From an uncultured Afifella sp. (GTDB lineage Bacteria > Pseudomonadota > Alphaproteobacteria > Rhizobiales > Afifellaceae): a stretch of DNA of 48,924 nucleotides. Under the pieces are notes generated by a model. The model was not told the DNA's origin. It worked only from the letters and a program-made list of their open reading frames with translations, and ran no database searches. Position 1 is the stretch's first letter. Every line of letters begins with the position of its first letter. Position numbers and translations under genes: made by a program. Positions 1 to 38,591 of the stretch are shown here, one piece after another. The stretch is taken from the NCBI GenBank assembly GCA_947259045.1, contig CAMYKZ010000019.1, positions 1 to 48,924 on the forward strand. Direction: 5' to 3'.

Positions 1-209
1 TCAATCAGCACAAAACTGCCCCGCAAATCGCCGATAATCACCATTTGCTGAAACCGGTCTTCGATCGTGCTTTCGGTTTCAGCCGACGTGTTTTTCGAGC
101 CGGTAACGGCAATCCAGCCGATGATCGCCATGGATATCAGAGCGACGACGAAAATCGATGCAAGCTTCATCGACAAGGTCATTGTGAATTTTGGACGCGA
201 CGGTTCCAT
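1..209 (-). CDS. Membrane sensor protein N-terminus, partial (runs off the window edge). TM helix then a periplasmic-type region; could be an MCP, a histidine kinase or a GGDEF protein.
   Basis: ATG at 209..207 with an AGGGGA SD 10 nt upstream. Translation MEPSRPKFTMTLSMKLASIFVVALISMAIIGWIAVTGSKNTSAETESTIEDRFQQMVIIGDLRGSF has a hydrophobic TM segment followed by a polar region. Co-directional, 85 nt downstream of the binding-protein gene. Confidence 0.4.
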   Translation of the reverse strand, partial: MEPSRPKFTMTLSMKLASIFVVALISMAIIGWIAVTGSKNTSAETESTIEDRFQQMVIIGDLRGSFVLI

Positions 210-294: not shown

Positions 295-1059
295 CTATGA
301 CGGTGCACGCTGGCTCATGGCTTGAATCAGCGCACGGACATCATTGTTCGCATCACCCTTCGTCACCAGAATCAGCGGCTGCTCAGCGAAAACGCCGGGC
401 AAGGCAAAGACGGAAGCATTGAGCCTTGGTTCGTTGACGAAGCCGATGCCGTGTTTGGCCTGGCCGATCACTTTGACCACCTGTTGCAGCCCGGCCAACT
501 CCTGGGCGGTGCCGACGATAGCCTTGCCGTTCAGCAACTGCTTTTCAACCAGCGACCTCAAGCCCTTGCCCGCTTTAGTCGTGAATATCGCGATCCGCAT
601 GTCCGGCCCGCCGAGTTCGCGCCAGTTTGTGATCCTGCCAAGCAGAATATCGCGCAGTTGATCTTCGCGCAGGGAGCGAACCGGATTTTCCGGATGAACG
701 ATAAAGCGTGTTTTGACGCCACCGATCCGATGTTCTTTCAACTGGGTTTTGCCGATGGCGCCAGGAACCTTGCGCTCTACCGATGCCTTGACATCTTCAA
801 ACGGCGCCGAAATCATCGCCACATCGGCCTTGCCCGTGATCAGGGCAATAATGCCTTTGGACGATCCGTTGGCGATGACATGGATATTGCGGCCGGTCGC
901 CTTGTTCAGCGCGTCCATGTGCGGAATCAGAACGGTTCTCGCAACCGTGGTGGAGCCGTGTACTTCCATCACGCGGCCCTGTTGAGCGGATGCATGACCA
1001 AAAGCCAGCCCGAACGCCGTCAGCGCCAGCAGCCCCTTCAGTGATAATTTATTCAGCAT
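295..1059 (-). CDS. Periplasmic PstS-like (PBP_like_2) substrate-binding protein with signal peptide
   Basis: 254 aa. Signal peptide MLNKLSLKGLLALTAFGLAFGHASA. Motifs HGSTTVAR...ANGSSKGIIALITGKADVAMIS are typical of phosphate-binding-protein-like periplasmic domains. SD CAGGAGT upstream of the ATG. Confidence 0.7.
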   Translation of the reverse strand: MLNKLSLKGLLALTAFGLAFGHASAQQGRVMEVHGSTTVARTVLIPHMDALNKATGRNIHVIANGSSKGIIALITGKADVAMISAPFEDVKASVERKVPGAIGKTQLKEHRIGGVKTRFIVHPENPVRSLREDQLRDILLGRITNWRELGGPDMRIAIFTTKAGKGLRSLVEKQLLNGKAIVGTAQELAGLQQVVKVIGQAKHGIGFVNEPRLNASVFALPGVFAEQPLILVTKGDANNDVRALIQAMSQRAPS

Positions 1060-1708
1060 TATGTCTACTCCTGTTACCCTTGATTTCGGCCGCGCGGATC
1101 GCCGTCCGGGATCAAGCCGGGTTAGCCGTGATGCCTGTTGTTCAATCGCAGCTAGAAGCTGTTAGTAAATAATAAACGACGATTGAAGCGTCACGACACT
1201 GCAATGAATAGATCAAAAAAATGTCGCATATGTTATGAAACGCGGTTAATTAATTCTGTTCTTTGGCTTTGCAACGCAACGTTCCAGCGGTAGAAGTATA
1301 ATCGTCTCGCTTGCTTCATGCTAAGTTCTTAACCATATCGTCGATGTATTGTGAGTCCCGTTTGTCGCACGGAATCAAACATATAGAATTAATATCGGAA
1401 AATACGGATCATGCCATACAACCGCTGGAGGTGCCGGATTTTTTGTCAGAAATTTGCCTTCGAACTGTCGTCAAATATCGGCCGTATAAAGACTGCGGCA
1501 TGGACAGTTGTTTGAGAATTACAGTCAGGCGGGTTTGCGAATTCCTGGCGAGAGCCGCTAAAACCGGCAGAAATCACTGGCATGGTTTTCTCTTTGCGGT
1601 GACGCGGATGGGCCTGGTCGGCGGCGCCGTTCTGCTGGTCCCGCTGTTTCACGCTCTGGTGCCGCAACCGGACAAACCGGCCGGTCTGGCCGTTACCGAT
1701 GCCTCATC

Positions 1709-4700
1709 CTACACGCGTACGGGTTCCGACGCGCCGTCCTGGAGTTGCAGATCGAGCAGTTCAATCTCTCCGGACGGGTGCAACCTGAGCCGGCTTTGAT
1801 CCGCGATTGCATGCACACCCCTCGCGCCGACGATCATCGCAATGTCATGTTCGCGTGCGACAATCGCCATATGGCTCAGCCAGCCACCGACTTCGCTCAC
1901 CACACCGCCTGAACGCAGAACGAACGGCAGCCATGCCGGATGCACCATGGAGCAGACGATAATATCGCCATCGCGGAAACCTTCGATCGGTTTGCCCGCC
2001 TCGGCCGCTTCCATGGACACCACACAGCAACGGCCGGAAACAGCGCTGGAACCTGAGACCCTGGTGCCTTGCAGATCCGATATTGCGTCAGCGCCCTGCG
2101 CGGCGGACACCAGAGACGCCGATTCCAATTGCTTCAAAGTGAGACTGGTGGGCAACGCAGGCATCGCAAGAAGCTTTTGCTGTTCTTCCTGGCGCCGGCT
2201 TGCGACAGGCCTGAGTGCTGCGGCGCCACGGGCTTGAAGTTCCGCAAGTTCCTCAAATGTCAGATAGAAGCACAGGCCGGAGAGATTGAGTCTGCGGTCA
2301 AGTTCCATCAGCGCATGACGCAGAACGGCGAGATGGCGCAGCGATTCGTGTTTGGCGTCCTCCTTGAGCACCTGATAGCGCCGGGCAATGCCAACGGATG
2401 TTTTGACATCTTCGGGCAATTCGGGACCGCTGTCTGCCGCTTCCGCCGCATGGGAGAATTCCAGGCCGCACAAAGCGTCAAGATGCTCAGGCGTTTCTGA
2501 GTACCGCGGCTCGGAAAGTTCATAGTCGAAGCCGGCGCGATGGCCGAACTTGGCGACCAGATGCAGTTTTTTCTCCGCGGCGGGCAGGGCCAGCGCTTCA
2601 GAAAGAGCCCGCGCGGAAACCGCATCGGCTGCACTGCCAAGCAGGGCTGCCGGATCCAGACCTGTATTCTCGATAGCCAGCTTGGCGCGTGCAGTGTGGA
2701 AATCCGCCGCAATGTTGACGGTTTCGACTTCGACATGAGTGGACGTTACAAATTCCTCACGCAGACGTTCGACGCAGGCAAACAGTTCCGGCGTGGCCAT
2801 CTTTTCGAAATTGGCGATCTCCAGAACATTCATTTCCGCGTTGAACAGCGGCAGGAATTCTTCGCGGAACCGCCGTTCGATGCTTTCCACGCCTTTGGTC
2901 AGGCGCACGGATGCCGCTTTTGTCAAAGTCACCGCATTCTGTTTCATCCGCCGGGGATCGGTGTAAAGCCGGCCGAAGACGGTTTGCAGATGCGATGGAG
3001 CATCTTCCTCGACCGGATAGGTCAAGCCCAGACTGCGGCAGGACAGATCGACACTGCCGCCGGGCGCCCAGAGCGAACTCATCAGCGACAATGACAGTGG
3101 TGTGGGGCGTGGCAGAACCTCCGACATCTCGGTCTGTTCCAGCACGATTTCGTCCGCGCCGGCGTCAGCGGCAAGAGCAAACACTTTGTTCCATTCGTCC
3201 AGCGCCAGCTGATCCTGTGCCGCCGTGCCGAGAAGTGCGGTTATGTCACGGCTCTGCACGATCATGAATGCGCCATCGCGGTAGGTCCATTCAATGTCCT
3301 GCGGCCCGCCGAATATCTCTTCTGCCTGCGCGCCTGTTGCCAGCAATGATGCAATGTCAAAGGGCGCACCGGTTTCATCGAGGCTTTCATGCGAATGCCG
3401 TCCGAAGCGGAACGTATCGGGGGCCGCCATACCGGATACGAGATCATCGGCAGTACCGCGCACCATTTCCACCATCATGGCGCCGGCGGATTCCGGATCG
3501 CGGGTAAAGAGCACGCCGGCGAACTCCGGTGAAATCATGCGCTGGACGAGGATGTTGCCGCCGCTTGCGTCGAGGCCGTAACTGCCGGCGCGACCGGACA
3601 CGAAGGAGGCCATGACTTCGTCAATCGCGCGCTCAAGACTTTCATATTCGACATCGAGAACGCTCTCGAAGACCCCGGCGAAACTTTGCGTCGCACCGTC
3701 TTCCGCCGCCGCGGAACTGCGCACAGCGACACGGTCCGCTCCAAGCATCTGCCATGCCCGGTCCAGCATCTGCTGGCGCGCACTGCCGTCAGCAGCCTGC
3801 AGCCGTTGCAGGAACGATGTGGTCAGCACCACGCCATCGGGCACGGCAATGCCGTGCTGGCGCAGGCGCGCGAGCCGATAGGCCTTGTTGCCGCAACCGG
3901 CGAGCTGTTCTGCATCGGTCAAGGGGATAATGCCTGTCCGGGCCTGCAGATTGCGCCGTGCTTCGCGTAGAGCGTCCGGCAATCGCGCAAGCCGGGAAAA
4001 CTGACCGGTCACTGCGGCGCGCTGCACCAGAAGCAGGACAGCGCTGACGATCAGATAGAGGCTGGCGGCGGCGCTCAGTATGGCAGCCAGACCGGTCAGG
4101 ACCGGCAAAGCGATAAGCCATGCCAGCACCCGCTGCCGCTTTGTTCTGACGAGCACCAGATCCAGATAGACCGATCCCAGCAAAGCGAAAATCGCCGGCA
4201 GGACATAAAGCGGATCGGGCGCAGCGATATCGTCAATCCACAACAGGGAAACATTGTTGCCGTTTGCGGCGATCTGAACCGCCGACAGCATGATCATCAT
4301 CACCGGCAGGAATGCGAGTGCCAGGAGGTTGCGCAGCGGCGTCAGGCCGTGACGCGTGTAGAACGCCTTGATCGCACGGGTCAGACGCTGTGGATCATGT
4401 TTCAGCCTGTCTTTCAATTCGGCCAGCTCAGGCGCTGCCGCATTGGCGCGGATCTGATCGCGTTCCGCTTTGATCGCGACAGGCAGGACCGCAAGCCTGG
4501 ACGCCACGGCAGCCAGCAGAATGGTCAGCAGCAGGCCGATCCTGCCAGCCGCGCTGTCGAGCAGCCCGCCGACGACGTCGATTGATTTCTGCCACAGGCC
4601 GGCCTGCGATGCCGCCATCCAGGCCTCGATATGAGGTTTGGGTTTCTTCGGTATGAAATATTCCCATGGCAGGGTATAGCGGCCCCGGAAATCATGACCT

Positions 4701-5788
4701 GCACGGGTCAGTTCAAGTCCCAGCACTTCGGCATTGAAGCAACTCCGACGATCATAGCAGGCCGCGACGATGGGCTTGCGCGGCAGTCTGGAGATCCGGT
4801 CGGTCAGTTCCGCCGTCGGCGTCGGGCGCACAGGAAGATTGATTGCGCCCGGCAGGTGGCCGGAAGCAAAGTCGGCCGGGTAGCGCACATCGACGATCGC
4901 GGCTTGCTCGTTTTCGATCAGACCGCGGACATCCGGTGTGTCGAGCAGAACATTCTGAGCCGGATAGGACGGAAGGGCACGCAAGTCGCTCAGGGACCGG
5001 ACAGTCCTGTCCGTGAAAGACCGTCCCTCCACGATCCATTTTTCGATACCGCCGACAATGAAGCGGCAGTCGATACCCAGGCGGGCGAGCTTTTCGCAGG
5101 TTTCGGAACTGCGGTTGCCGTTGTGACACAGCAGAATGGCCGTCTTTCCGGCAAGATCAATATTCGACTTGGCCAGATCGGGGAAACGAATATGGCGTGC
5201 GCCGGGCAAGGTGCCCATCTCGTTTTCCGAGGTCTCCCGGATGTCGAGAAGAACCACGTCACTGCGTTCTCCCGTTTGCACCTGTTCTAGAAGCGCTGTC
5301 GTGTCGGCCGTCGAAATCCCCAGGCCGTGATCGCTCTGCGCTGCGAATGAGGTCACCTTGAGGTTCGGATCCAGAATGCGGGTTCCGGCGGTCACGGCAG
5401 GCCTGGTCAGTGTCGCCTGAAGCCGTGTTTGGCCTTGCTGACGCTGGTCGACAAACTGATAAATGTTCAGCCCGGCTGAAAGGAGAACCACCACAAACAG
5501 CCCGGCAGCGATACGCAAGGCCATTTTTGCGGAGCGGTCATCCCTGCCGGCTTTTGCACTGGCGCGCATACCAGCTGCTGCAGCACCGCCCCCCAGCATC
5601 GCCACGCCAAGGGCCATCAGCTGCGACACGCTTGAGATCGAACCGATCACAAGTTCCGGTGACGGAATTGCATAGGCCGGGCCAGCAAACAGAATGCCTG
5701 CCCCTGCGGCGGCGCTGGTACTGACAGTCTGAATTGAGAAACGGTTGCTGGATACTGGAGAGGAAATTGAAATCTTCAGGCGATACAT
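1709..5788 (-). CDS. Large multidomain membrane protein: N-terminal TM helices, two rhodanese domains, YidC/Oxa1-like insertase core, PPDK_N-type ATP-grasp (PEP/pyruvate-binding-like) domain, C-terminal PEP-utilizers phospho-His swivel domain
   Basis: 1359-aa uninterrupted ORF with high GC3. Rhodanese CX5R loop (LLCHNGNRSS) and a second (AACYDRRSC). YidC-like motifs (SRLAVLPVA; KAFYTRHGLTPLRNLLALAFLPVMM; LLWIDDIAAPDPLYVLPAIF). PPDK_N motifs (GCGNKAYRLARLRQHGIAVPDGVVLT; VAVRSSAAAEDGATQSFAGVFES; IEWTYRDGAFMIVQSRDIT). Swivel His motif GGWLSHMAIVAREHDIAMIVG. No PEP/pyruvate TIM barrel. Confidence 0.8.
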   Translation of the reverse strand: MYRLKISISSPVSSNRFSIQTVSTSAAAGAGILFAGPAYAIPSPELVIGSISSVSQLMALGVAMLGGGAAAAGMRASAKAGRDDRSAKMALRIAAGLFVVVLLSAGLNIYQFVDQRQQGQTRLQATLTRPAVTAGTRILDPNLKVTSFAAQSDHGLGISTADTTALLEQVQTGERSDVVLLDIRETSENEMGTLPGARHIRFPDLAKSNIDLAGKTAILLCHNGNRSSETCEKLARLGIDCRFIVGGIEKWIVEGRSFTDRTVRSLSDLRALPSYPAQNVLLDTPDVRGLIENEQAAIVDVRYPADFASGHLPGAINLPVRPTPTAELTDRISRLPRKPIVAACYDRRSCFNAEVLGLELTRAGHDFRGRYTLPWEYFIPKKPKPHIEAWMAASQAGLWQKSIDVVGGLLDSAAGRIGLLLTILLAAVASRLAVLPVAIKAERDQIRANAAAPELAELKDRLKHDPQRLTRAIKAFYTRHGLTPLRNLLALAFLPVMMIMLSAVQIAANGNNVSLLWIDDIAAPDPLYVLPAIFALLGSVYLDLVLVRTKRQRVLAWLIALPVLTGLAAILSAAASLYLIVSAVLLLVQRAAVTGQFSRLARLPDALREARRNLQARTGIIPLTDAEQLAGCGNKAYRLARLRQHGIAVPDGVVLTTSFLQRLQAADGSARQQMLDRAWQMLGADRVAVRSSAAAEDGATQSFAGVFESVLDVEYESLERAIDEVMASFVSGRAGSYGLDASGGNILVQRMISPEFAGVLFTRDPESAGAMMVEMVRGTADDLVSGMAAPDTFRFGRHSHESLDETGAPFDIASLLATGAQAEEIFGGPQDIEWTYRDGAFMIVQSRDITALLGTAAQDQLALDEWNKVFALAADAGADEIVLEQTEMSEVLPRPTPLSLSLMSSLWAPGGSVDLSCRSLGLTYPVEEDAPSHLQTVFGRLYTDPRRMKQNAVTLTKAASVRLTKGVESIERRFREEFLPLFNAEMNVLEIANFEKMATPELFACVERLREEFVTSTHVEVETVNIAADFHTARAKLAIENTGLDPAALLGSAADAVSARALSEALALPAAEKKLHLVAKFGHRAGFDYELSEPRYSETPEHLDALCGLEFSHAAEAADSGPELPEDVKTSVGIARRYQVLKEDAKHESLRHLAVLRHALMELDRRLNLSGLCFYLTFEELAELQARGAAALRPVASRRQEEQQKLLAMPALPTSLTLKQLESASLVSAAQGADAISDLQGTRVSGSSAVSGRCCVVSMEAAEAGKPIEGFRDGDIIVCSMVHPAWLPFVLRSGGVVSEVGGWLSHMAIVAREHDIAMIVGARGVHAIADQSRLRLHPSGEIELLDLQLQDGASEPVRV

Positions 5789-9879: not shown

Positions 9880-9983
9880 GATGATGCGTCCTGGCAGGAA
9901 TTTTTGAAATCGGCGCTTTTTAGCAGACCTTTGCGCAAGCGCCAGTCCTACAGACCCAATCGGTCTCATAAAACAAGATCGGC

Positions 9984-10016
9984 CGCAAAAGCAAAAGGGC
10001 GGCAGTGCCGCCCTTC
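9984..10016 (-). terminator. Rho-independent terminator downstream of rplT
   Basis: Minus strand reads GGGCGGCactGCCGCCC (7-bp GC stem) followed by TTTTGCTTTTG, about 30 nt after the rplT stop. Confidence 0.6.
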
Positions 10017-10044
10017 AGATTTTCAGTTCAGGCTCGTTCGAAGT

Positions 10045-10446
10045 CTAGCTGACGGCGCCTTCGAACTCACCGGGGGTAAAGTCCTTCAAATAGGCCAGGG
10101 CGGACTTGGCCTGTTCGGCAAGAGCGGTAAAGGCTTCCGCCTCATGCACGGCCAGATCAGCCAGCACCTTGCGGTCGACTTCGATGCCGGCCTTGTTCAG
10201 GCCATCGATCATCCGGCCATAGGTGAGGCCGTTATCGCGGGCTGCCGCATTGATCCGCTGGATCCACAAAGCCCGGAAGTTGCGCTTGCGGACACGACGG
10301 TCGCGATAGGCGTACTGGCCTGCTTTTTCAACCGCCTGCTTTGCGGCGCGGATCGTGTTCTTGCGCCGGCCATAATACCCTTTGGCCTGTTTGGTGACGT
10401 TCTTGTGTCTGGCGTGAGCTGTCACGCCGCGTTTTACGCGTGCCAT
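10045..10446 (-). CDS. rplT: 50S ribosomal protein L20
   Basis: [39 protein letters not shown]... is canonical L20. The 133-aa length with a C-terminal extension is typical for alphaproteobacteria. Confidence 0.95.
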
Positions 10447-10466
10447 TGTTCAGATCTCCTGCTCGC

Positions 10467-10664
10467 TCAACTGTAAGGCATGAACTTGCGGACGATGCGG
10501 GCATCGGGCTCCGACAAGAGTGTTGTGCCACGGGCATTGCGGATGAATTTCTTCGACCGTTTGATCATCATGTGGCGCTTGCCGGCCTGGGCGACTTTTA
10601 TTTTCCCGGTCGCGGTAAACTTGAAGCGCTTCTTGGCGCCTGACTTGGTTTTCATCTTGGGCAT
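10467..10664 (-). CDS. rpmI: 50S ribosomal protein L35
   Basis: [46 protein letters not shown] is canonical L35 (66 aa). Start placed at the internal Met of the longer ORF. Sits 20 nt upstream of rplT. Confidence 0.9.
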
Positions 10665-10851
10665 TCTGCTCTCCTTCATTCGGCAATGGCTTTTGCAACC
10701 CTTTGCCGGACTGGGTCTGTTAAAACTGGCTCGATCAATGAGCATTGCGGATCGACACGGCATGCCCTTTCCGCTTTTGCGGAAGCCGGCCTATCCCAAG
10801 CGCGGCCTTATAGCCGCGACATTTGTCTATGGCAAGTCGATTCCGGCCGGT

Positions 10852-11514
10852 TCAGGCTTCTGCTTCGGCCCCGTCAGTCTGCGTTTCGGCGGCAACGTCC
10901 GCCGGAGCATCGGACTGCGCCGGTTCTGCGTCTGCCGCCTTTTCGGTTTTCTCAGGTTTCGCGGCCTGCTTTACCGACGGCAGCGGCGCCAGGATCATGA
11001 TCATCTGGCGGCCTTCGGACTTCGGCGAGAATTCCATTTTGGCAACATCCGCCAGTTCGTCACGAACTTTGTAAAGCACATCAAGGCCGAGATCCTGATG
11101 CGCCATTTCACGGCCTCGGAACCGCATGGTCACCTTGACCTTGTCTTCGTCTTCCAGAAAGCGGCGGGCATTGCGCATCTTCACGTCATAATCATGGGTG
11201 TCGATGTTCGGCCGCATCTTGATTTCCTTGACGTCGACCGTCTTCTGCTTCTTGCGCGCTTCGGCGGCCTTCTTCTGGGCCTGATATTTGAATTTGCCGT
11301 AATCGAGAATCTTCACGACAGGCGGTCGGGAATTGGGAGAAATCTCAACCAGATCCAGCCCGGCTTCATAAGCCATGGCAAGCGCCTGCTGCGTATCGAT
11401 GTCGCCGTGATTGTGTCCATCTTGGTCGATCAGCTGGACCTGTGGGATCCGGATGTCTTCGTTAACGCGGGTTCCGTCCTTGACCGGAGGCGGTGCGCGA
11501 TGAGGTCTGCGAAT
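10852..11514 (-). CDS. infC: Translation initiation factor IF-3, with a non-canonical AUU start and an Ala/acidic C-terminal tail
   Basis: IF3 N- and C-domain motifs ([24 protein letters not shown]; [16 protein letters not shown]; [13 protein letters not shown]; [11 protein letters not shown]). The N-terminus [14 protein letters not shown] matches alphaproteobacterial IF3 starts. The ATT codon at 11514..11512 is preceded by AAGGAG at an 8-nt spacing. Confidence 0.85.
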
Positions 11515-11686
11515 GGTTAAGTCTCCTTCTTGATATTGAAAAAAGATCCGAATCGTCTTCAAGCGGCTGAATTACGGATCGCTGCTGAAAATCCGGCCAT
11601 TTGGCGCGAGAGTCAACACAAAGTCGGTATCTTTCCGGTTAAGTGTCGCAGGATTGTTTGAACCAAAGGCCGATCAGTGAGCCTTT

Positions 11687-12859
11687 TCAGGCATTTGCGC
11701 CAGCCAGAGCAATATAAAGCGCCAATGTCTGTTCTGCCATGGCAGAGAGTGAAAATCGGCCGGCATGCGCCTTTGCGCGCGCCGCCATCTCCCGTTTCTC
11801 CGTTTCTTCCAGACGAAGCGCCTGATCGATAGCCTCGGCCAGGGCGCCGGAATCGCCTGGCGGAACATGCCAGCCGGTGCGCTGGCCAGGCTCCACTTCC
11901 GGCGGCGCCAGCACCGTTTCAGGCACGGCGCCCAGCGCGGTTACGACAATCGGCACCCCAAGCGCCTGTGCCTCGACGGCTGCGCGGCCAAAGGCCTCCG
12001 GTGATGTCGAGGCAACCACGCTGACGTCGGCCAGGGCAAAAGCGGCGGCGACATCGTCGCAATGGCCGACCATGCGGATCCGGTCCGTCGCCCTGCGTTC
12101 GTCGATCAATGTCTGCAATTGCCGGCGATAGGCGCTGCGGCCCTGGTCGTCGCCGGCCAGGATCACCACAACATTGCCGTGATCGGCCACGGCCGGGCGG
12201 CAGGCCGCTTCGATCAGCACCTGCTGGCCCTTCCAGCTGGTCAATCGGGCGACATTGAGCACAATTCTGTCGGCACCGCCGATTTTCCATTGGCTGCGCA
12301 GGGCCTCGATCCGCTGATCGCCGATGGCTTGCCTCTGAAATCCATCCAGATCCGTGCCCCGGTAGATGACGCGGATCCGGCTTTTGTCGGTGCCATACCG
12401 CGAAACGATCAGATCGGCGGTATAGTTGGAATTGGCGATGATCAGATCGCTGCGCGCCATGACCGAATTGTAGAGCCGCTTCAGCCGTCCCTTTTCGGAA
12501 TAGATGCCATGGTATGTGGTTATCCATGGAACACCCGTGCGGCGGCTTGCCAGCAAGGCCGACCAGGCCGGCGCGCGGCTTCGGGCGTGGATGATGTCGA
12601 CCTTCCGGTCGCGGACCAGTTGCGCAATCCGTCCGGCATTTTTCAGCATGGTCCAAGGATTCTTTGAATCCAGCGGCATCTGCACATGCTCAGCGCCGGT
12701 CGCCAGCAACTCTTCGGCCAGCCGCCCGCCACTGCTTGCCACCAGCGCGCAATGGCCGGCCTGCTGCAGCGCCCGGCTGATATCAACTGCCGTGCGCTCC
12801 GCGCCACCGGTTTCAAGGGACGGTACCAGTTGCAATATGGTCAGGCGGCTTGATGTCAT
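11687..12859 (-). CDS. Glycosyltransferase, GT4/GT1-clan (RfaG-like)
   Basis: C-terminal EX7E-type motif EAFGRAAVEAQALGVPIVV. Rossmann GT-B features. Start chosen at MTSSRLTILQLVPSLETGGAER (ATG 12859), not the longer ORF start at 13042. Confidence 0.75.
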   Translation of the reverse strand: MTSSRLTILQLVPSLETGGAERTAVDISRALQQAGHCALVASSGGRLAEELLATGAEHVQMPLDSKNPWTMLKNAGRIAQLVRDRKVDIIHARSRAPAWSALLASRRTGVPWITTYHGIYSEKGRLKRLYNSVMARSDLIIANSNYTADLIVSRYGTDKSRIRVIYRGTDLDGFQRQAIGDQRIEALRSQWKIGGADRIVLNVARLTSWKGQQVLIEAACRPAVADHGNVVVILAGDDQGRSAYRRQLQTLIDERRATDRIRMVGHCDDVAAAFALADVSVVASTSPEAFGRAAVEAQALGVPIVVTALGAVPETVLAPPEVEPGQRTGWHVPPGDSGALAEAIDQALRLEETEKREMAARAKAHAGRFSLSAMAEQTLALYIALAGANA

Positions 12860-26760: not shown

Positions 26761-28275
26761 CTACCCGTCGCGGTCTGCATACCAGACATGAAGAGCCGAC
26801 AGTACCGGGTGTCTGAGATTTCGCGCAAGCACCTGCTTGACCCGGTCCAGATAGATTTCATAACCCGGTTTTCCACCATGAAACGACAATCGTGTGAAGG
26901 CTCCGAGCACCTTGGTCGCCCGCTGAGCACCGAGGATCGCATAGGCTCTGGCGAATCCCTCCTCATCGAACTTCGGATCGTCGGTCCTGCGGGCATCGCA
27001 ATATCGCCGATAGAGCGCGTCTTCCATACCCTCGCTGATGTCGACCCTGGCGTCCTGGGCCAGGGATGCGACATCATAGGCCGGATGGCCGATCAGAGTG
27101 TCCTGGATATCGATCACTCCGACCCTGTGGGGACCCTGCGCCTCCGGCTGCCAGAGGATATTCGGCGAATGGAAATCACGCATGACCCAGGTTTGCGCCT
27201 CGCCGCCAACAGCCGACAGAATATCCTGCCAGTCCTGCAGAAACGCCTGGCGATTGCCCGGCGACATGGCCTGTCCGCGGCTGTGCGGCACATGCCAATC
27301 GGCAAACAGCGATATTTCGATGAGCATCGCGTCGGTGTCATATCGGGGGACGGTGCATGTCTCGCCATCGAAATGCAGAATTTCCGGCCAGCTTCGGCTG
27401 TGCATGCGGGCAAGCAGGTCGATTGCCGCTTCATAGCGTTCGCGCACCGGTTCGCCGGTTTCGTCAATGATTGTCTCAGCGCCAAGATCCTCCATCAGAA
27501 CGAGGCCGGCAGCGCGATCATGGGCAAAGACCTGCGGCACGTGAATATCCGCGCCGGCAAGCTCGGAACCGATGGCCAGAAACGGCAGCACATCGAGTGC
27601 CCGATGCGCCACATCGTCGTAAGAGCGGCCGTGCCAGACCGCCGGGCCCGGCTGGCGGGCCGGCGCATTCATCAGGATCGCGGTCTGCTGACCGGCGCTG
27701 ACAATCCGCTCAAACGCCTTTGACGAGGCGTCGCCGACAACATGCAACCGGTCTGCCTTCCGATAACCGGCACGGTCGATGAATTTGCGAATGCGGAGAC
27801 TGCGGGCAAGACGTTGCGGCCAGCTTCCTGAAGCCCTGATTTCGGCCTGCCGCTGCTCGCCGGTCATGCGGATTTCGATATCCAGCCGATTGTCCACCTC
27901 CGGCCAGGTGATGCGATCCGGCCATTCGGCGATCAAAGCGGCCTCTTCAAGCGCCTCGTCGAGCCCGAGTTCGAGCGCATCCTCCTCGCCGGCAATGCGG
28001 TAGAGATCGATATGCGCGAGCAGGAGATGGACCAGGCGATAATCAATGCGGATGGAGAAGGTCGGGCTTGGAACATCGAGCACCGGGTCTCCGGCCGCAG
28101 AACGGATCAGTGCCCGGGCAAGGGTGGTTTTGCCGGCGCCCAGATCGCCCGACAGGGTGATCAGGTCTCCGGTCTGCACCATGGCGGCAATATCCTGCGC
28201 CAGCCGGCAGGCCGTGGCCTCATCTGTGATGTCAAGATTGCGCATTGCGGCCGGCATGACCGGATCGCCGGTCAT
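26761..28275 (-). CDS. tsaE: Fusion protein: N-terminal TsaE (t6A biosynthesis ATPase) and C-terminal aminoglycoside-phosphotransferase-fold kinase (AmgK-like anomeric MurNAc/GlcNAc kinase)
   Basis: TsaE Walker A LSGDLGAGKTTLARAL and HIDLYRI. APH-family motifs DFHSPNILW and GVIDIQD in the C-terminal half. Confidence 0.8.
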   Translation of the reverse strand: MTGDPVMPAAMRNLDITDEATACRLAQDIAAMVQTGDLITLSGDLGAGKTTLARALIRSAAGDPVLDVPSPTFSIRIDYRLVHLLLAHIDLYRIAGEEDALELGLDEALEEAALIAEWPDRITWPEVDNRLDIEIRMTGEQRQAEIRASGSWPQRLARSLRIRKFIDRAGYRKADRLHVVGDASSKAFERIVSAGQQTAILMNAPARQPGPAVWHGRSYDDVAHRALDVLPFLAIGSELAGADIHVPQVFAHDRAAGLVLMEDLGAETIIDETGEPVRERYEAAIDLLARMHSRSWPEILHFDGETCTVPRYDTDAMLIEISLFADWHVPHSRGQAMSPGNRQAFLQDWQDILSAVGGEAQTWVMRDFHSPNILWQPEAQGPHRVGVIDIQDTLIGHPAYDVASLAQDARVDISEGMEDALYRRYCDARRTDDPKFDEEGFARAYAILGAQRATKVLGAFTRLSFHGGKPGYEIYLDRVKQVLARNLRHPVLSALHVWYADRDG

Positions 28276-33099: not shown

Positions 33100-34221
33100 C
33101 TATTCGCCCAGCGTATCGAAGAAATCCTTGACTCGGGCGAAAAAGCCGGACGATTCCGGATTGTTTTCCTCAGACTGGACCTTTTCGAATTCCTGCAGCA
33201 ATTCGCGCTGCCGCTTGGTCAGATTGCGGGGCGTCTCGACGACGATCTGGACATACATGTCGCCGACATTGCGAGTGCGCAGGATCGGCATGCCCATGCC
33301 CTTGAGCCGGAACTGCTTGCCGGTCTGGGTCCCGTCAGGAACCTTGACCCGGGTGCGGCTGCCGTCAATGGTCGGCACCTCGAACTGGCCGCCAAGCGAC
33401 GCTGTCGTCATCGACACGGGCGCGCGGCAGAAAATATCGGCGCCGTCGCGCTGGAAGAAACTGTGCGGCTTGATCGACAGAAAGATATAGAGATCGCCGG
33501 TCGGCCCGCCGCGAAGTCCCGCCTCGCCCTCGCCGGCGAGGCGAATTCGCGTACCGTCTTCGATCCCGGGCGGGATGTTGACGGAGAGGTTCCGGGTCTG
33601 GACGACACGGCCGGCGCCGGAACATTTCTCGCACGGATCGGTAATCTGTTCGCCGCGCCCCTGACAGGTCGGGCAAGTGCGTTCGATGTGAAAGAAGCCG
33701 CCCTGTGTCGCGCGCACCCGGCCGGCGCCGCCGCAGGTCTGGCAGGTCGACGGGCTTGATCCGGGCCGCGCGCCGGAACCGGTGCAGGTCTCGCAGGACA
33801 CTGAGGTCGGCACTTCGATTTCCACCGACTTGCCAGAAAATGCGTCTTCCAGGGAAACTTCGAGATTGTAGCGCAGGTCCGAGCCGCGCTCGCGGCCGCC
33901 GCGGCGCTGACCGCCGCCACCCATAAAGTCGCCGAATATGTCTTCAAAAATATCGGAAAAGGAACCGAAACCCTGTCCGGCTCCGCCGCCGCCATTTTCA
34001 AAGGCCTGGTGGCCAAAACGGTCGTAGGCGGCGCGCTTGTCGGCGTCCTTCAGGATCTCATAGGCTTCGCCGACTTCCTTGAATTTGCCTTCAGCTTCCG
34101 GATCGTCGGGATTCCGGTCCGGGTGCAATTGCATCGCCAGACGACGAAAGGCGCCTTTCAGCACCTTTTCGTCGACGTTGCGTTCAACGCCCAGAATTTC
34201 GTAATAATCTCGTTTGGCCAT
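33100..34221 (-). CDS. dnaJ: Molecular chaperone DnaJ
   Basis: J-domain [35 protein letters not shown] region, four CxxCxGxG zinc-finger repeats. Confidence 0.95.
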
Positions 34222-34289
34222 GTCGGTCCGTCAAAACGGCAGGGAAACCCCGTCCGGCCGCGATGCGGCCGGACGGATTTGATCAATGA

Positions 34290-36230
34290 TCAGGCTGATT
34301 TTTTCTGGTCATCGTCGACCAGATCATCGTCATCATCCGACACTTCTTCGAAATCGGCGTCGACAACATCGTCGTTTTCGCTGTCGGCTGCCGCATCGGC
34401 TTGCGCCGCCTGCTCTTCTTCCGCCTGGGCCGCCGCATACATGGCTTCACCGATTTTCATCGAAGCCTCGGCAAGCGCCTGGGACTTGGCTTCGATCTCC
34501 GCCTTGTCCTCGCCTTCCAGCGCCGTCTTCAGGTCGGCAATCGCGGCTTCAACCGCGGCCTTGTCGTCTTCGCCGACCTTGTCGCCATGTTCTGCAATAC
34601 TCTTTTCTGCAGAATGGATCATGGCCTCGGCGGTATTGCGGGCTTCAACGCTCTCACGCCGTTCCTTGTCGGAATCGGCATTGGCTTCGGCTTCCTTGAC
34701 CATCTTATCGATCTCGTCGTCGGAAAGGCCGCCGGAGGCCTGGATGCGGATCTGCTGCTCCTTGCCGGTGCCCTTGTCCTTGGCGGACACATTGACGATG
34801 CCGTTGGCGTCGATATCGAAGGCCACTTCGATCTGCGGCACACCGCGCGGAGCCGACGGGATACCGACCAGATCGAACCGGCCGAGTTCCTTGTTGTCGG
34901 CGGCCATTTCGCGTTCGCCCTGGAAGACCCGGATCGTCACCGCGCTCTGATTGTCATCGGCGGTGGAGAAGGTCTGGCCCTTCTTGGTCGGGATCGTCGT
35001 ATTGCGGTCGATCAGCCGGGTGAACACACCGCCAAGCGTCTCGATGCCGAGCGACAGCGGCGTCACGTCGAGCAGCAGCACGTCCTTGACGTCGCCCTGC
35101 AGAACGCCGGCCTGGATGGCCGCGCCCATGGCAACCACTTCGTCCGGATTGACGCCCTTGTGGGGTTCCTTGCCGAACAGCTGCTTGACGGTTTCCTGGA
35201 CCTTCGGCATGCGCGTCATGCCGCCGACGAGAACAACCTCGTCAATGTCGCCCGGTGTCAGGCCGGCATCCTTGAGGGCCGCCTTGACCGGATCGACGGT
35301 GCGCTGCACCAGATCGTCGACAAGCTGCTCGAACTTGGCACGCGACAGCTTCATCGTCAGATGTTTCGGTCCCGACGAGTCGGCGGTGATGTAAGGCAGG
35401 TTGATTTCCGTCTGCTGCGAAGCTGACAGCTCGACCTTGGCCTTTTCAGCCGCTTCCTTGAGCCGCTGCAGGGCCAGCGGATCCTTGCGCAGATTGATGC
35501 CCTGTTCCTTGTTGAACTCGTCGGCCAGATAATCCACCAGCCGCATGTCGAAATCTTCGCCGCCGAGGAACGTATCGCCATTGGTCGATTTGACCTCGAA
35601 CACGCCGTCGCCGATTTCCAGAACGGAAATATCGAAGGTGCCGCCGCCAAGGTCATAGACGGCGATCGTCTTGCCTTCGTTCTTGTCCATGCCGTAGGCA
35701 AGGGCCGCCGCCGTCGGCTCGTTGATGATGCGCAGAACTTCAAGACCGGCAATCTTGCCGGCATCCTTGGTCGCCTGACGCTGGGCATCGTTGAAATAGG
35801 CAGGAACCGTGATGACTGCCTTCTCGACCGTTTCGCCGAGGAAGGTTTCAGCGGTTTCCTTCATTTTCTGAAGAATCATCGCGGAGATCTGCGAGGGCGA
35901 ATATTTCTCGTCGTTGGCTTGAACCCAGGCGTCGCCATTGTCAGCCTTGACGATCTTGTACGATACCAGCCCCTGATCTTCCTTGACGGTGGGATCTGCG
36001 AAACGACGGCCGATCAGCCGCTTGACCGCAAAGATGGTGCGTTCCGGGTTGGTGACGGCCTGGCGCTTGGCCGGTTGGCCGACAAGCCTGTCATTATCGT
36101 CGTTGAATGCGACCATGGACGGTGTCGTCCGGGCGCCTTCGGAATTTTCGATTACTTTTGGATCTTTGCCGTCCATGACGGCGACGCACGAATTGGTCGT
36201 GCCCAGGTCAATGCCGATGACTTTCGCCAT
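34290..36230 (-). CDS. dnaK: Molecular chaperone DnaK (Hsp70)
   Basis: [29 protein letters not shown]. 646 aa with an acidic C-terminus. Confidence 0.95.
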
Positions 36231-37852: not shown

Positions 37853-38461
37853 TTGATGATGGATGACTTGAAAATCCTGCCGGGATATTTCGATGCCGAA
37901 GCGCAGCGGCAATTGCTTGACGACATCCGCACTGTCGTCCGCGCAGCGCCATTATTCACGCCGGTGATGCCGCGCAGCGGCAAGCCGTTTTCCGTTCGCA
38001 TGAGCAATTGCGGCGGGCTTGGCTGGGTATCCGACAAAGACGGCTACCGCTATCAGCCGCAGCATCCGGTGACCGGGCGGCCCTGGCCGGCAATACCGCA
38101 TCGGCTGCTCGACGCCTGGGCCCATCTTGCAGATTATCCGGGACCGCCGGAGGCCTGCCTGATCAATTTCTATTCAAGCACCGCGAAGATGGGCCTGCAC
38201 CAGGACCGCGACGAAGAGACGTTCGATGCGCCGGTTCTGTCGGTGTCGCTTGGCGATACGGCCTTGTTCCGCATCGGCGGCACGAAGCGCGCCGATCCGA
38301 CACGCTCGGTGCGGCTGGCCTCCGGCGACGTGGTTGTCATGGGCGGCAAGGCCCGGCTTGCCTATCACGGCATCGACCGGGTGATGGCCGGCACGTCAAG
38401 CCTGCTGGCCGATGGCGGCCGCATCAACCTGACAATGCGGCGGGTGACGCCGGGGCGTTAG
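37853..38461 (+). CDS. alkB: Alpha-ketoglutarate/Fe(II)-dependent dioxygenase AlkB (DNA alkylation repair)
   Basis: LINFYSSTAKMGLHQDRDE (HxD) ... DVVVMGGKARLAYHGIDRV (second His, Arg). About 200 aa. Confidence 0.85.
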   Translation: MMMDDLKILPGYFDAEAQRQLLDDIRTVVRAAPLFTPVMPRSGKPFSVRMSNCGGLGWVSDKDGYRYQPQHPVTGRPWPAIPHRLLDAWAHLADYPGPPEACLINFYSSTAKMGLHQDRDEETFDAPVLSVSLGDTALFRIGGTKRADPTRSVRLASGDVVVMGGKARLAYHGIDRVMAGTSSLLADGGRINLTMRRVTPGR

Positions 38462-38591
38462 CGGGGTGCCGATCAGGCCTCCCCACACTGCCCGTTTACC
38501 ATTTTTTGAACAACGTTCATTTTTTCCTTGATTAACTTCGGCCAATCCCGTAGATATTTGAAATGAACAACGTTCAATAATGGAGATGGCG

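What the first reader, a model, noticed from the sequence alone, without database searches (positions are those of the whole stretch)
4004..4606. YidC/Oxa1-like insertase core embedded mid-protein, flanked by soluble enzymatic domains
Residues about 395-595 align motif-by-motif with the E. coli YidC conserved core. GRIGLLLTILLAAVASRLAVLPVA matches YidC TM1 with the essential Arg. KAFYTRHGLTPLRNLLALAFLPVMMIMLS matches the 'LYKxxxVNPLGGCLPxLIQMPIF' region. LLWIDDIAAPDPLYVLPAIFALLG matches 'FLWIxDLSxxDPYYILPILMG'. YidC-family proteins normally carry only short N- or C-terminal tails. An insertase fold sandwiched between rhodaneses and an ATP-grasp/His-swivel enzyme is highly atypical, and suggests the hydrophilic-groove fold is being used for something other than general membrane-protein insertion.
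Basis: seen in the sequence. Interest (0 to 1): 0.75.

Follow-up and report, generated by a model that had tools for sequence, protein, structure and literature searches.

The report
YidC-fold core inside a signal-linked membrane enzyme
A real copy of the YidC/Oxa1 membrane-insertase fold sits in the middle of a 1359-residue protein, between two predicted periplasmic sulfurtransferase-type domains and a cytoplasmic ATP-driven phosphotransferase; this uncharacterised protein family occurs in several bacterial phyla, nearly always next to a periplasmic binding protein and a membrane sensor, so it looks like a specialised accessory use of the insertase fold, not the cell's general insertase.

Summary
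Residues 421-593 of the ORF at 1709-5788 (- strand) match Pfam PF02096 over the whole profile (57.7 bits, cut-off 35). They fold with pLDDT 93.7 into a model whose only significant PDB neighbours are YidC/Oxa1 structures. The groove arginine (R431) is invariant across 72 homologues.

Predicted order: cleavable signal peptide, a two-helix TM hairpin, two periplasmic rhodaneses with conserved Cys loops, the YidC 5-TM core, then a cytoplasmic rifampin-phosphotransferase/PigC-type ATP-grasp plus swivel-His enzyme.

The architecture is not a one-off. At least 212 species-level genomes carry it. These are Hyphomicrobiales and roseobacters, plus a second clade in Planctomycetota, Gammaproteobacteria and Cyanobacteria that often adds a canonical c-di-GMP-binding PilZ domain.

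In 70 of 86 loci the gene lies beside an orphan oxyanion-type binding protein and a hybrid histidine kinase or GGDEF-EAL sensor. In Phaeobacter it is carried on a plasmid that can be cured, so it is not the housekeeping insertase.

No paper describing it was found. What the groove does here is unresolved. My best guess is an Arg-lined membrane access path for an anionic or amphiphilic substrate of a signal-controlled enzyme.

The parts
1709..5788 (-). Whole gene, called 'T' in this report: a 1359-aa multidomain membrane protein
   Evidence: ORF list and translation. Four Pfam families score above their cut-offs. More than 230 full-length homologues share the same architecture.
5669..5788 (-). 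Residues 1-40: predicted Sec-type signal peptide ending in AYA
   Evidence: Every homologue inspected has a variable basic and hydrophobic N-terminus that ends in AxA immediately before the invariant IPSPELV. Cleavage is inferred, not shown.
5567..5668 (-). Residues 41-74: invariant N-terminal motif IPSPELVxGS..S.SQ...GGG, forming helix TM-A
   Evidence: This is the most conserved short segment within the alphaproteobacterial clade, at 70% mean identity. It is a hydrophobic segment. Coevolution places it antiparallel to core TM2, but that result is tentative. AF2 confidence is low here, with pLDDT 33-58.
5450..5524 (-). Residues 89-113: helix TM-B, preceded by a K/R-rich cytoplasmic loop (residues 75-88)
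   Evidence: Hydrophobicity and charge count. A long helix appears in the AF2 model. The coevolution ladder links TM-A and TM-B as a hairpin.
5003..5311 (-). Rhodanese domain 1, with active-site loop C221-H-N-G-N-R226 (C221 codon at 5126-5128)
   Evidence: Pfam Rhodanese scores 80.5 bits over two stretches. C221, G224, N225 and R226 are invariant in 72 sequences from both clades. Foldseek hits thiosulfate sulfurtransferases.
4649..4942 (-). Rhodanese domain 2, with loop C344-Y-D-R-R-S-C350 (C344 codon at 4757-4759)
   Evidence: C344, Y345 and D346 are invariant across both clades; R347 and C350 are invariant within the alphaproteobacterial set. This is the most conserved domain between the clades, at 55% identity.
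4004..4606 (-). The finding itself (residues 395-595): YidC/Oxa1-type module with interface helices, five TM helices, the cytoplasmic C1 helical hairpin, and groove Arg R431 (codon 4496-4498). The Pfam match covers 4010-4528.
   Evidence: R431, K440, D444, N487, P531 and Y578 are invariant in 72 sequences. Positive-inside loops fit the canonical YidC topology.
3209..3904 (-). Residues 629-860: ATP-grasp nucleotide-binding domain (PPDK_N)
   Evidence: Pfam PPDK_N scores 112 bits. The motifs VRSS, ED, SFAG, QDxEW and QxRxIT are invariant. The PDB sequence search hits rifampin phosphotransferase and PEP synthase structures.
2024..3208 (-). Residues 861-1255: central domain related to the substrate-binding region of rifampin phosphotransferase
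   Evidence: NCBIfam RIF_Ptrans_rph, PRK06241, RedH and PigC models all hit, but far below their cut-offs. PF27448 Rph_4th is recorded for homologues. 5FBS/5HV1 match at E 1.5e-28.
1769..2023 (-). Residues 1256-1340: swivelling phosphohistidine domain, with catalytic H1306 in GGWLSH (codon 1871-1873)
   Evidence: Pfam PEP-utilizers scores 53 bits. GGWLSH is invariant.
295..1059 (-). Downstream partner gene: an orphan PstS-like periplasmic binding protein (PBP_like_2)
   Evidence: Pfam scores 82 bits. The nearest solved relatives are phosphate-binding PstS proteins. The same gene family lies downstream of T in Hyphomicrobiales loci.
1..209 (-). Start of the next gene on the same strand. It has an N-terminal TM helix and runs off the window. 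By synteny it is presumed to be the membrane sensor (HAMP-PAS-GGDEF-EAL type in related loci).
   Evidence: Translation and start-codon position. Synteny in L001, L007-L023 and others. Its identity cannot be shown from the 69 residues available: there was no HMM hit.

Best explanation
The region encodes a genuine but divergent YidC/Oxa1-fold module. It is the transmembrane centre of a conserved modular enzyme, which I call T.

Predicted layout:
- A cleaved signal peptide puts the invariant N-terminus outside the cell.
- A TM hairpin (TM-A and TM-B) follows.
- Two catalytically competent rhodanese domains sit in the periplasm, at the position of the P1 domain of Gram-negative YidC.
- The five-helix YidC core, with its groove arginine R431 and its C1 hairpin, crosses back into the cytoplasm.
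- A rifampin-phosphotransferase/PigC-type enzyme (ATP-grasp, substrate domain, swivelling His1306) sits in the cytoplasm.

T is not the housekeeping insertase. It is the enzyme arm of a three-gene module that also holds an orphan oxyanion-type periplasmic binding protein and a membrane sensor (a hybrid histidine kinase or a GGDEF-EAL protein). In a second clade T is itself a c-di-GMP receptor through a C-terminal PilZ domain.

Proposed mechanism (inferred, not shown): the swivel-His enzyme uses ATP to phosphorylate a membrane-resident or amphiphilic acceptor. The Arg-lined hydrophilic groove of the YidC fold, with the family-specific R486-N487 at its cytoplasmic mouth, gives that anionic head group a path into or across the bilayer. 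The periplasmic rhodanese cysteines act on the outer side. The whole process is gated by the signal that the binding protein detects.

My confidence differs by part:
- Fold identity, topology and accessory status: about 0.9.
- T as the output of the neighbouring signalling pair: about 0.6.
- Groove used for a non-protein substrate: about 0.35.
For: Shown:
- YidC homology and fold.
- R431 aligns with R72 of B. halodurans YidC2. It is invariant in 72 sequences down to 35% identity.
- The C1 hairpin and TM1 are as conserved as the catalytic domains: 62% and 56% identity within the clade, 39% between clades.
- The rhodanese Cys loops, the ATP-grasp motifs and GGWLSH1306 are invariant.
- Topology: AxA signal peptides occur in all homologues inspected. 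K/R-rich loops lie at 75-88, 436-487 and 548-553, while the 507-520 loop has no K/R. The coevolution register places TM-A antiparallel to core TM2.
- Module conservation: 73 of 86 loci have a binding protein within 5 kb and 70 of 86 also have a sensor. Gene orders differ, and the pairing recurs in Planctomycetota, Granulosicoccus, a cyanobacterium and one unassigned metagenome contig.
- PilZ domains with RRxxxR and [DN]xSxxG motifs are fused to T in the second clade.
- Accessory status: 82 plasmid records carry T. These include pPGA1_262 of P. inhibens DSM 17395, and curing that plasmid improves growth (PMC5421792).

Supporting leads from papers:
- YidC is described as a lipid scramblase as well as an insertase, and it physically partners the rhodanese protein YibN in E. 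coli (PMC11997395).
- PF12974-type domains sense thiosulfate and tetrathionate in ThsS and TtrS (PMC5408782).

From my own knowledge: the characterised relatives of the C-terminal enzyme (rifampin phosphotransferase, PigC) act on hydrophobic small molecules.
Against: - No substrate, product or phenotype is known, and no paper was found.
- Retention of nearly all YidC signature residues is equally compatible with real protein-insertase activity.
- The two binding-protein types (PstS-like and PtxB/PhnD-like) are not detectably related to each other, and neither are the sensor N-termini. The common signal is therefore uncertain.
- The window's own protein and its whole clade lack PilZ.
- About 15% of loci lack the partner genes, although some of these are at contig ends.
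- I could not inspect model coordinates, so the geometry between the swivel domain, the C1 hairpin and the groove is unknown.
- The coevolution signal is weak. Meff is 245, and several topologically impossible pairs score as high as the pairs I rely on.
- Periplasmic placement of the rhodaneses rests on prediction only.
Confidence: 0.55

Rival explanations
1. T is still a protein insertase, but a dedicated and regulated one. In this reading the YidC core inserts or translocates one or a few specific client proteins, and the fused rhodaneses, the dikinase and (in clade 2) PilZ regulate or energise that activity in response to the neighbouring sensor.
For: - Almost all YidC signature positions are kept: the Arg in TM1, the P in the NPL-like motif, the W..DP periplasmic motif, and the Y...S......Q pattern in TM5.
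- The C1 hairpin, which I recall as functionally important in YidC, is strongly conserved.
- E. coli YidC works with the membrane-anchored rhodanese protein YibN, which stimulates insertion (PMC11997395).
- In some Hyphomicrobiales loci a small hydrophobic ORF lies next to T and could be a client.
Against: - No conserved client gene accompanies T across clades. The small ORF is absent from the window and from most loci.
- I infer that a 750-residue enzyme at the C-terminus would sit where ribosomes or substrates dock.
- Q429 of the E. coli groove has no counterpart, and GG is replaced by the invariant R486-N487.
- YibN's rhodanese is cytosolic, and its similarity to T's rhodaneses is only generic.
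- Nothing known about YidC needs an ATP-grasp/His phosphotransferase.
Confidence: 0.22
2. The YidC fold is only a scaffold or signal transducer. In this reading T is a sensor or relay in which the periplasmic rhodanese cysteines detect a sulfur or redox species (or dock the binding protein). The helical bundle transmits this signal to the cytoplasmic ATP-grasp/His module. That module's phospho-His then feeds the neighbouring hybrid kinase and receiver domains, or otherwise sets their activity.
For: - T is tightly linked to signalling genes rich in receiver and Hpt domains, and no output regulator is encoded nearby.
- From my own knowledge, swivel-His domains do pass phosphate to proteins in the PTS (Enzyme I to HPr).
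- GAF and PAS domains are added to T in some members.
- The rhodanese fold is an anion-binding module.
Against: - A passive scaffold would not need the groove Arg, yet it is invariant in 72 sequences.
- The central RPH-like substrate domain is retained and conserved, which suggests a small-molecule acceptor.
- From my own knowledge, PilZ fusions typically mark effectors, not upstream sensors.
- No phosphotransfer from a PPDK-type His domain to receiver or Hpt domains is known to me.
Confidence: 0.2
3. The architecture is an artefact: a mis-assembled or mis-called fusion of separate genes, or a decaying pseudogene.
For: The only support is that it is unusual.
Against: - It is one uninterrupted 1359-codon ORF.
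- The same domain order and length occur in more than 230 clusters from NCBI, JGI, ENA and Logan assemblies, in complete genomes and in 82 finished plasmids.
- Catalytic residues are invariant in all four modules.
Confidence: 0.01

Closest known systems
YidC/Oxa1/Alb3 insertases (E. coli YidC 3WVF/6AL2; B. halodurans YidC2 3WO6)
   Same: - Five-TM core with a cytoplasmic helical hairpin.
- Conserved Arg in core TM1.
- Signature motifs in TM2, the periplasmic loop and TM5.
- Core topology with the N-terminal side out and the C-terminal side in.
- A large periplasmic insertion before the core, as in Gram-negative YidC.
   Different: - Below the NCBIfam TIGR03592 cut-off.
- Rhodaneses take the place of the P1 domain.
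- A signal peptide and TM hairpin replace a single anchor helix.
- GG is replaced by the invariant R486-N487, and there is no counterpart of E. coli Q429.
- A roughly 750-residue enzyme is fused at the C-terminus.
- It is accessory and dispensable.
- It is embedded in a signalling module.
YibN-YidC complex of E. coli
   Same: A membrane-anchored rhodanese domain is physically coupled to a YidC fold (PMC11997395). In T the two are covalently fused.
   Different: - YibN has one TM helix plus one cytosolic rhodanese, whereas T's two rhodaneses are predicted to be periplasmic.
- Sequence similarity is only generic for the rhodanese fold: 31% identity over 64 residues.
- YibN has no kinase module.
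Rifampin phosphotransferase (RPH, 5FBS/5HV1) and prodigiosin ligases PigC/RedH
   Same: The domain order is the same: ATP-grasp, central substrate domain, C-terminal swivelling His. The PEP/pyruvate TIM barrel is absent. The catalytic His motif is conserved.
   Different: - Scores are far below every equivalog cut-off, for example 154 bits against 999.
- The acceptor is unknown.
- T is tethered to the membrane through the YidC core.
PilZ-regulated membrane enzymes such as cellulose synthase BcsA (analogy, from my own knowledge)
   Same: In the second clade, a membrane-embedded enzyme carries a C-terminal PilZ domain with canonical c-di-GMP-binding motifs. A GGDEF-EAL gene is adjacent in many loci.
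   Different: There is no glycosyltransferase and no known polymer. The window's clade lacks PilZ.
Sensors that depend on a binding protein or a PhnD-like domain (AioX/AioS, ArrX/ArrS, TtrS/ThsS)
   Same: An orphan PtxB/PhnD/AioX-like or PstS-like oxyanion-binding protein is encoded beside a membrane sensor, with no ABC transporter of its own. PF12974 domains sense sulfur oxyanions in TtrS and ThsS (PMC5408782).
   Different: The ligand is unknown. The partner output here is T, not a DNA-binding regulator. The two binding-protein types used in different clades are not detectably homologous.

Membership tests
YidC/Oxa1/Alb3 (Pfam PF02096) | Profile match above Pfam's gathering score over the whole domain | tested here: met
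   57.7 bits against a cut-off of 35; residues 421-593 match profile positions 3-161 of 163.
YidC/Oxa1/Alb3 (NCBIfam TIGR03592 yidC_oxa1_cterm) | Score above the curated cut-off of 84.3 bits | tested here: not met
   55.9 bits for the full protein and 60.1 bits for the excised region. The module is divergent.
YidC/Oxa1/Alb3 | Five-TM bundle with a cytoplasmic coiled-coil hairpin between TM1 and TM2 | tested here: met
   AF2 gives pLDDT 93.7. The top nine Foldseek hits are all YidC/Oxa1; 3WO6 scores TM 0.68/0.77 with rmsd 3.3 A.
YidC/Oxa1/Alb3 | Conserved arginine in core TM1 lining the hydrophilic groove | tested here: met
   R431 aligns with R72 of B. halodurans YidC2 and is invariant in 33, 51 and 72 sequences. 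Whether it faces a groove in T could not be checked, because no coordinates were available.
YidC/Oxa1/Alb3 | Core topology with the N-terminal side periplasmic and the C-terminal side cytoplasmic | tested here: met
   This is a prediction only, based on positive-inside loop charges, AxA signal peptides and the TM-A/TM2 antiparallel coevolution register.
YidC/Oxa1/Alb3 | Membrane-protein insertase activity | not testable with these tools
   Needs depletion complementation or proteoliposome insertion assays.
Housekeeping bacterial YidC | Essential, single-purpose chromosomal gene | tested here: not met
   Orthologues lie on 82 plasmids, including pPGA1_262. Curing that plasmid gives better growth (PMC5421792). 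Only an estimated 212 species-level genomes of 185,579 carry the gene.
Rhodanese sulfurtransferases (PF00581) | Rhodanese fold with a catalytic Cys in a six-residue CxxxxR loop | tested here: met
   Pfam scores 80.5 bits over two stretches. C221-HNGN-R226 is invariant. Domain 2 has C344-YDRR-S-C350, which is conserved but non-canonical. Foldseek hits thiosulfate sulfurtransferases. Activity was not tested.
Classical tandem rhodanese (bovine TST, RhdA) | Fixed two-domain arrangement with an inactive N-terminal domain | tested here: not met
   Two-domain superpositions give rmsd 14-17 A, and both domains keep a conserved Cys.
PEP synthase / pyruvate phosphate dikinase | PEP/pyruvate-binding TIM-barrel domain in addition to the ATP-grasp and swivel His | tested here: not met
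   The Pfam scan finds only PPDK_N and PEP-utilizers. All PpsA and PPDK equivalog scores are far below their cut-offs.
Rifampin phosphotransferase / PigC-type swivel-His phosphotransferases | ATP-grasp, central substrate domain and C-terminal His domain with a conserved catalytic His | tested here: met
   5FBS/5HV1 match at E 1.5e-28 in three stretches. GGWLSH1306 is invariant. Rph_4th is recorded on homologues. T is not an orthologue of RPH, PigC or RedH: it scores 154, 118 and 140 bits against cut-offs of 999, 1300 and 1350.
PilZ c-di-GMP receptors | PilZ domain with RxxxR and [DN]xSxxG motifs | tested here: not met
   The domain is absent from the window protein and its clade. It is present with canonical motifs in the second clade.
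Known anti-phage defence systems (PADLOC) | Match to a PADLOC model | tested here: not met
   No hit for T or for the binding protein.

The most novel reading that the evidence does not exclude
The YidC/Oxa1 fold has been recruited as the transmembrane element of a new class of signal-gated enzyme, controlled by c-di-GMP or a two-component system. In this reading the Arg-lined groove does not insert proteins. It carries an anionic or amphiphilic small molecule or lipid head group between a cytoplasmic ATP-driven swivel-His phosphotransferase and periplasmic rhodanese cysteines. That would be a phosphoryl or sulfur-oxyanion relay across the membrane. It would be the first enzymatic, non-protein-substrate use of an Oxa1-superfamily groove, and the first insertase-fold protein directly controlled by a second messenger.
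Probability: 0.3. Interest if true: 0.9.

Novelty: new variant of a known kind. Interest (0 to 1): 0.7.

Why it matters
YidC/Oxa1 proteins are regarded as stand-alone insertases, and more recently also as lipid scramblases. Here the fold is covalently built into an enzyme, conserved across at least four phyla. It is tied to periplasmic ligand sensing and, in one clade, to c-di-GMP.

Three things would follow from working out what the groove does in this protein:
- It would test whether the Oxa1 groove can handle non-protein substrates.
- It would give the E. coli YidC-YibN (rhodanese) partnership a natural fused counterpart.
- It would assign a function to a large 'PEP/pyruvate-binding domain-containing protein' family found in ecologically important roseobacters and soil Hyphomicrobiales.

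The question can be tested directly. The orthologue sits on a curable plasmid of the genetically tractable Phaeobacter inhibens DSM 17395 (locus PGA1_RS19240).

Tried and rejected
1. **Domain-only homologue search.** Searching for homologues with the YidC module alone returned a single fragment, P0121, because the word index handles this TM-rich query poorly. The exhaustive representative search was used in its place.
2. **Artefactual fusion.** Rejected on the conservation data.
3. **Housekeeping yidC.** Rejected on plasmid location and curability. The window itself holds no second YidC. The rest of the source genome could not be read.
4. **Regulatory RNA in the gap.** The 650-nt gap between T and the binding-protein gene has no Rfam hit, either at gathering thresholds or at E<=1. 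Promoter and terminator scans were no better than shuffled sequence.
5. **Conserved small client gene.** A 60-80-aa hydrophobic ORF on the opposite strand recurs in only four loci and is absent from the window.
6. **A single orthologous partner pair in all clades.** The PstS-like and PhnD-like binding proteins give hhalign E 0.11, and the sensor N-termini give E 0.45.
7. **Special relationship to YibN.** Only generic rhodanese similarity was found.
8. **Defence system.** No PADLOC hit.
9. **Named NCBIfam families for the partners.** None reaches its cut-off.
10. **Literature.** Ten searches found no description of this architecture. A Leptospira PilZ paper that mentions YidC is unrelated.
11. 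**Coevolution analysis.** It recovers the expected helix ladders but also produces impossible pairs, so the TM-A/TM2 contact is only tentative.


Full report
**The observation**

The finding's coordinates (4004-4606, - strand) encode residues 395-595 of one uninterrupted ORF, 1709-5788, of 1359 aa. Pfam places four families on it, all above their cut-offs:
- Rhodanese, two stretches, 80.5 bits.
- 60KD_IMP/YidC, residues 421-593 against profile positions 3-161 of 163, 57.7 bits against a cut-off of 35.
- PPDK_N, 112 bits.
- PEP-utilizers, 53 bits.

The excised module hits B. halodurans YidC2 (E 2e-9), E. coli YidC (E 1.7e-7) and human OXA1L (E 7e-3) among PDB sequences. In an exhaustive search of 1.84 billion representatives the module finds 3640 proteins at E<=1e-3, with proteins of canonical YidC length starting at about E 1e-14.

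AlphaFold2 on residues 380-625 gives pLDDT 93.7 and pTM 0.83. The top nine Foldseek PDB hits are all YidC/Oxa1, and everything else has E>1. The stricter NCBIfam TIGR03592 model is not reached, at 56-60 bits against 84.3, so this is a divergent member of the family.

**Anatomy and topology**

All homologues inspected begin with a variable Sec-type signal peptide ending in AxA, immediately before an invariant IPSPELVxGS motif. Hydrophobic segments lie at 46-74 (TM-A), 89-107 (TM-B) and at the five YidC helices. The loops at 75-88, 436-487 and 548-553 are K/R-rich, while 507-520 has no K/R.

This is the canonical YidC orientation. It puts the roughly 300-residue tandem-rhodanese region (108-416) in the periplasm, where Gram-negative YidC carries its P1 domain, and puts the C-terminal enzyme in the cytoplasm.

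A second model (residues 38-640, 72 sequences) has pLDDT 87.6 and pTM 0.70. Confidence is low only for TM-A. Its PDB neighbours are thiosulfate sulfurtransferases and YidC.

A mean-field coevolution analysis (352 sequences, Meff 245) recovers the CH1-CH2, TM3-TM4, TM2-TM5 and TM1-TM2 ladders. It also gives a TM-A/TM-B hairpin and a consistent antiparallel register between TM-A and core TM2 (pairs 51-501, 54-496, 54-494 and 67-484). Several topologically impossible pairs score similarly, so I treat this contact as tentative.

**Are the modules functional?**

The following are invariant or nearly so across 33-72 sequences down to 35% identity:
- Rhodanese 1: C221-H-N-G-N-R226.
- Rhodanese 2: C344-Y-D-R(R)-x-C350.
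- YidC core: S430-R431, K440, D444, T483-P484, R486-N487, P531, Y578 and Q589.
- ATP-grasp: VRSS, ED, SFAG, QDxEW and QxRxIT.
- Swivel domain: GGWLSH1306.

The YidC C1 hairpin and TM1 are as conserved as the enzymatic domains.

The C-terminal half resembles rifampin phosphotransferase (5FBS/5HV1, E 1.5e-28) and PigC/RedH. It is far below every equivalog cut-off and lacks the PEP/pyruvate TIM barrel. It is therefore an uncharacterised member of the swivel-His, ATP-dependent phosphotransferases.

**Distribution**

More than 120 full-length homologues at 49-70% identity share the architecture. A scan of one genome per species found 212 carriers. The 80 loci that were returned are almost all Hyphomicrobiales (Methyloligella, Rhodoplanes, Xanthobacteraceae, Hyphomicrobium) or Rhodobacterales (Leisingera, Phaeobacter, Tritonibacter, Amylibacter, Sulfitobacter and others).

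A second, broader clade occurs in Planctomycetota, Granulosicoccus (Gammaproteobacteria), the cyanobacterium Lusitaniella and Tectomicrobia. About half of the listed members add a C-terminal PilZ domain with canonical RRxxxR and [DN]xSxxG motifs. Some add GAF or PAS domains as well.

**Genomic context**

In the window, T follows infC-rpmI-rplT-pheS-pheT. It is followed on the same strand by an orphan PstS-like binding protein (295-1059), and then by a gene that starts at 209 with a TM helix and runs off the window.

Across 86 loci, 73 have a binding protein within 5 kb and 70 also have a sensor. The pairs are of two kinds:
- A PtxB/PhnD/AioX-like protein with a BarA/TorS-type hybrid histidine kinase. 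This pair is mostly divergent from T in roseobacters and convergent elsewhere.
- A PstS-like protein with a HAMP-PAS-GGDEF-EAL protein, downstream of T in Hyphomicrobiales.

All four distant-clade loci I examined show the same pairing in yet other gene orders. Other flanking genes vary.

The two binding-protein types and the sensor N-termini are not detectably homologous. The association is therefore with a class of partner, an oxyanion-type binding protein plus a membrane sensor, and not with one orthologous pair. PF12974-type domains are the thiosulfate and tetrathionate sensing domains of ThsS and TtrS (PMC5408782). This is a lead linking the module to the sulfur chemistry of rhodaneses, but phosphorus or arsenic oxyanions are equally possible.

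**Not the housekeeping insertase**

Orthologues lie on 82 finished plasmids of Phaeobacter, Leisingera, Tritonibacter, Parasedimentitalea and Ruegeria sp. TM1040. One of these is pPGA1_262 of P. inhibens DSM 17395 (PGA1_RS19240). Curing that plasmid increases growth and yield (PMC5421792).

From my own knowledge YidC is essential in bacteria, so these cells must have another YidC. I could not verify a canonical yidC in the source genome. Only this contig is available, and it contains none.

**How it most likely works**

Shown: a divergent YidC fold with its groove Arg, flanked by apparently active rhodaneses and an apparently active swivel-His phosphotransferase, in a conserved signalling module, with PilZ in one clade.

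Inferred:
- T is the effector arm of that module.
- The YidC core provides an Arg-lined hydrophilic path in the membrane, with the family-specific R486-N487 at its cytoplasmic mouth.
- This path links cytoplasmic phosphoryl transfer to periplasmic thiol chemistry on an anionic or amphiphilic substrate.

The reported lipid-scramblase activity of YidC and its partnership with the rhodanese protein YibN (PMC11997395) make both a non-protein substrate and a rhodanese link plausible. YibN's rhodanese is cytosolic, however, and only generically similar to T's.

Rivals:
- A dedicated, regulated protein insertase (0.22).
- A scaffold or sensor relay that feeds the neighbouring kinase (0.20).
- An artefact (0.01, effectively refuted).

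**Novelty**

Ten full-text searches found no description of this architecture. Databases carry only automatic names. Each domain is a known kind. The combination, its predicted topology, the conserved partnership with a binding protein and a sensor, and the PilZ link are, as far as I could find, undescribed.

I rate it a new variant of a known kind, with interest 0.7. It would surprise a YidC specialist and is directly testable in Phaeobacter, but the mechanism remains open.

Noticed in passing
window 1-209 (- strand): A gene starts at 209 (MEPSRPKFTMTLSMKLASIFVVALISMAIIGWIAV...) with an N-terminal TM helix and runs off the window start. By synteny it should be the membrane sensor partner, but 69 residues are too few to identify it.
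   Followed up: partly
window 1060-1708: This is a 650-nt intergenic gap between T and the binding-protein gene, with no Rfam match and no convincing promoter or terminator. The ORF at 1311-1799 (+, 162 aa) has no Pfam hit and overlaps the 3' end of T, so it is probably spurious.
   Followed up: partly
L007, L014, L015, L022 (gap between T and the PBP_like_2 gene): A 60-80-aa ORF lies on the opposite strand, convergent with T. It has a conserved start (M..R.GLPNT) followed by a hydrophobic helix and a variable tail. About 95 nt of the DNA is conserved in L007, L008, L009, L014 and L022. It is absent from the window.
   Followed up: partly
window 26761-28275 (- strand): A 504-aa ORF combines a TsaE (t6A biosynthesis) domain with an APH-type phosphotransferase domain in one protein.
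   Followed up: no
window 10001-12000 and 34001-36000: Strongly negative AT skew (-0.18) on the + strand. It coincides with highly expressed genes on the - strand: rplT, rpmI and infC in the first stretch, dnaK in the second. This is a composition effect of the coding strand and nothing unusual.
   Followed up: yes
window 9904-10476 (+), 10480-11520 (+) and 38396-39304 (-): Long ORFs with no Pfam hit. The first two lie antisense to rplT, rpmI and infC and are almost certainly not genes. The third was not examined further.
   Followed up: partly
L023 and L063: Some loci carry GGDEF-EAL genes on both sides of T. L016 has two copies of the PstS-like binding-protein gene, which points to local duplication of the sensory partners.
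   Followed up: no
L088/L089 (Phaeobacter plasmids) and other roseobacter loci: In roseobacters the T module sits next to a Zur/znuABC-like metal-uptake cluster on one side. On the other side are a MurR/RpiR regulator and a TviB-type UDP-sugar dehydrogenase. I could not tell whether this reflects function or only shared ancestry of the replicon.
   Followed up: no
L008 and L026: Two carriers are labelled 'Actinomycetes' and 'Ramlibacter' (Betaproteobacteria) MAGs. These could be binning errors or horizontal transfer outside the main host groups.
   Followed up: no
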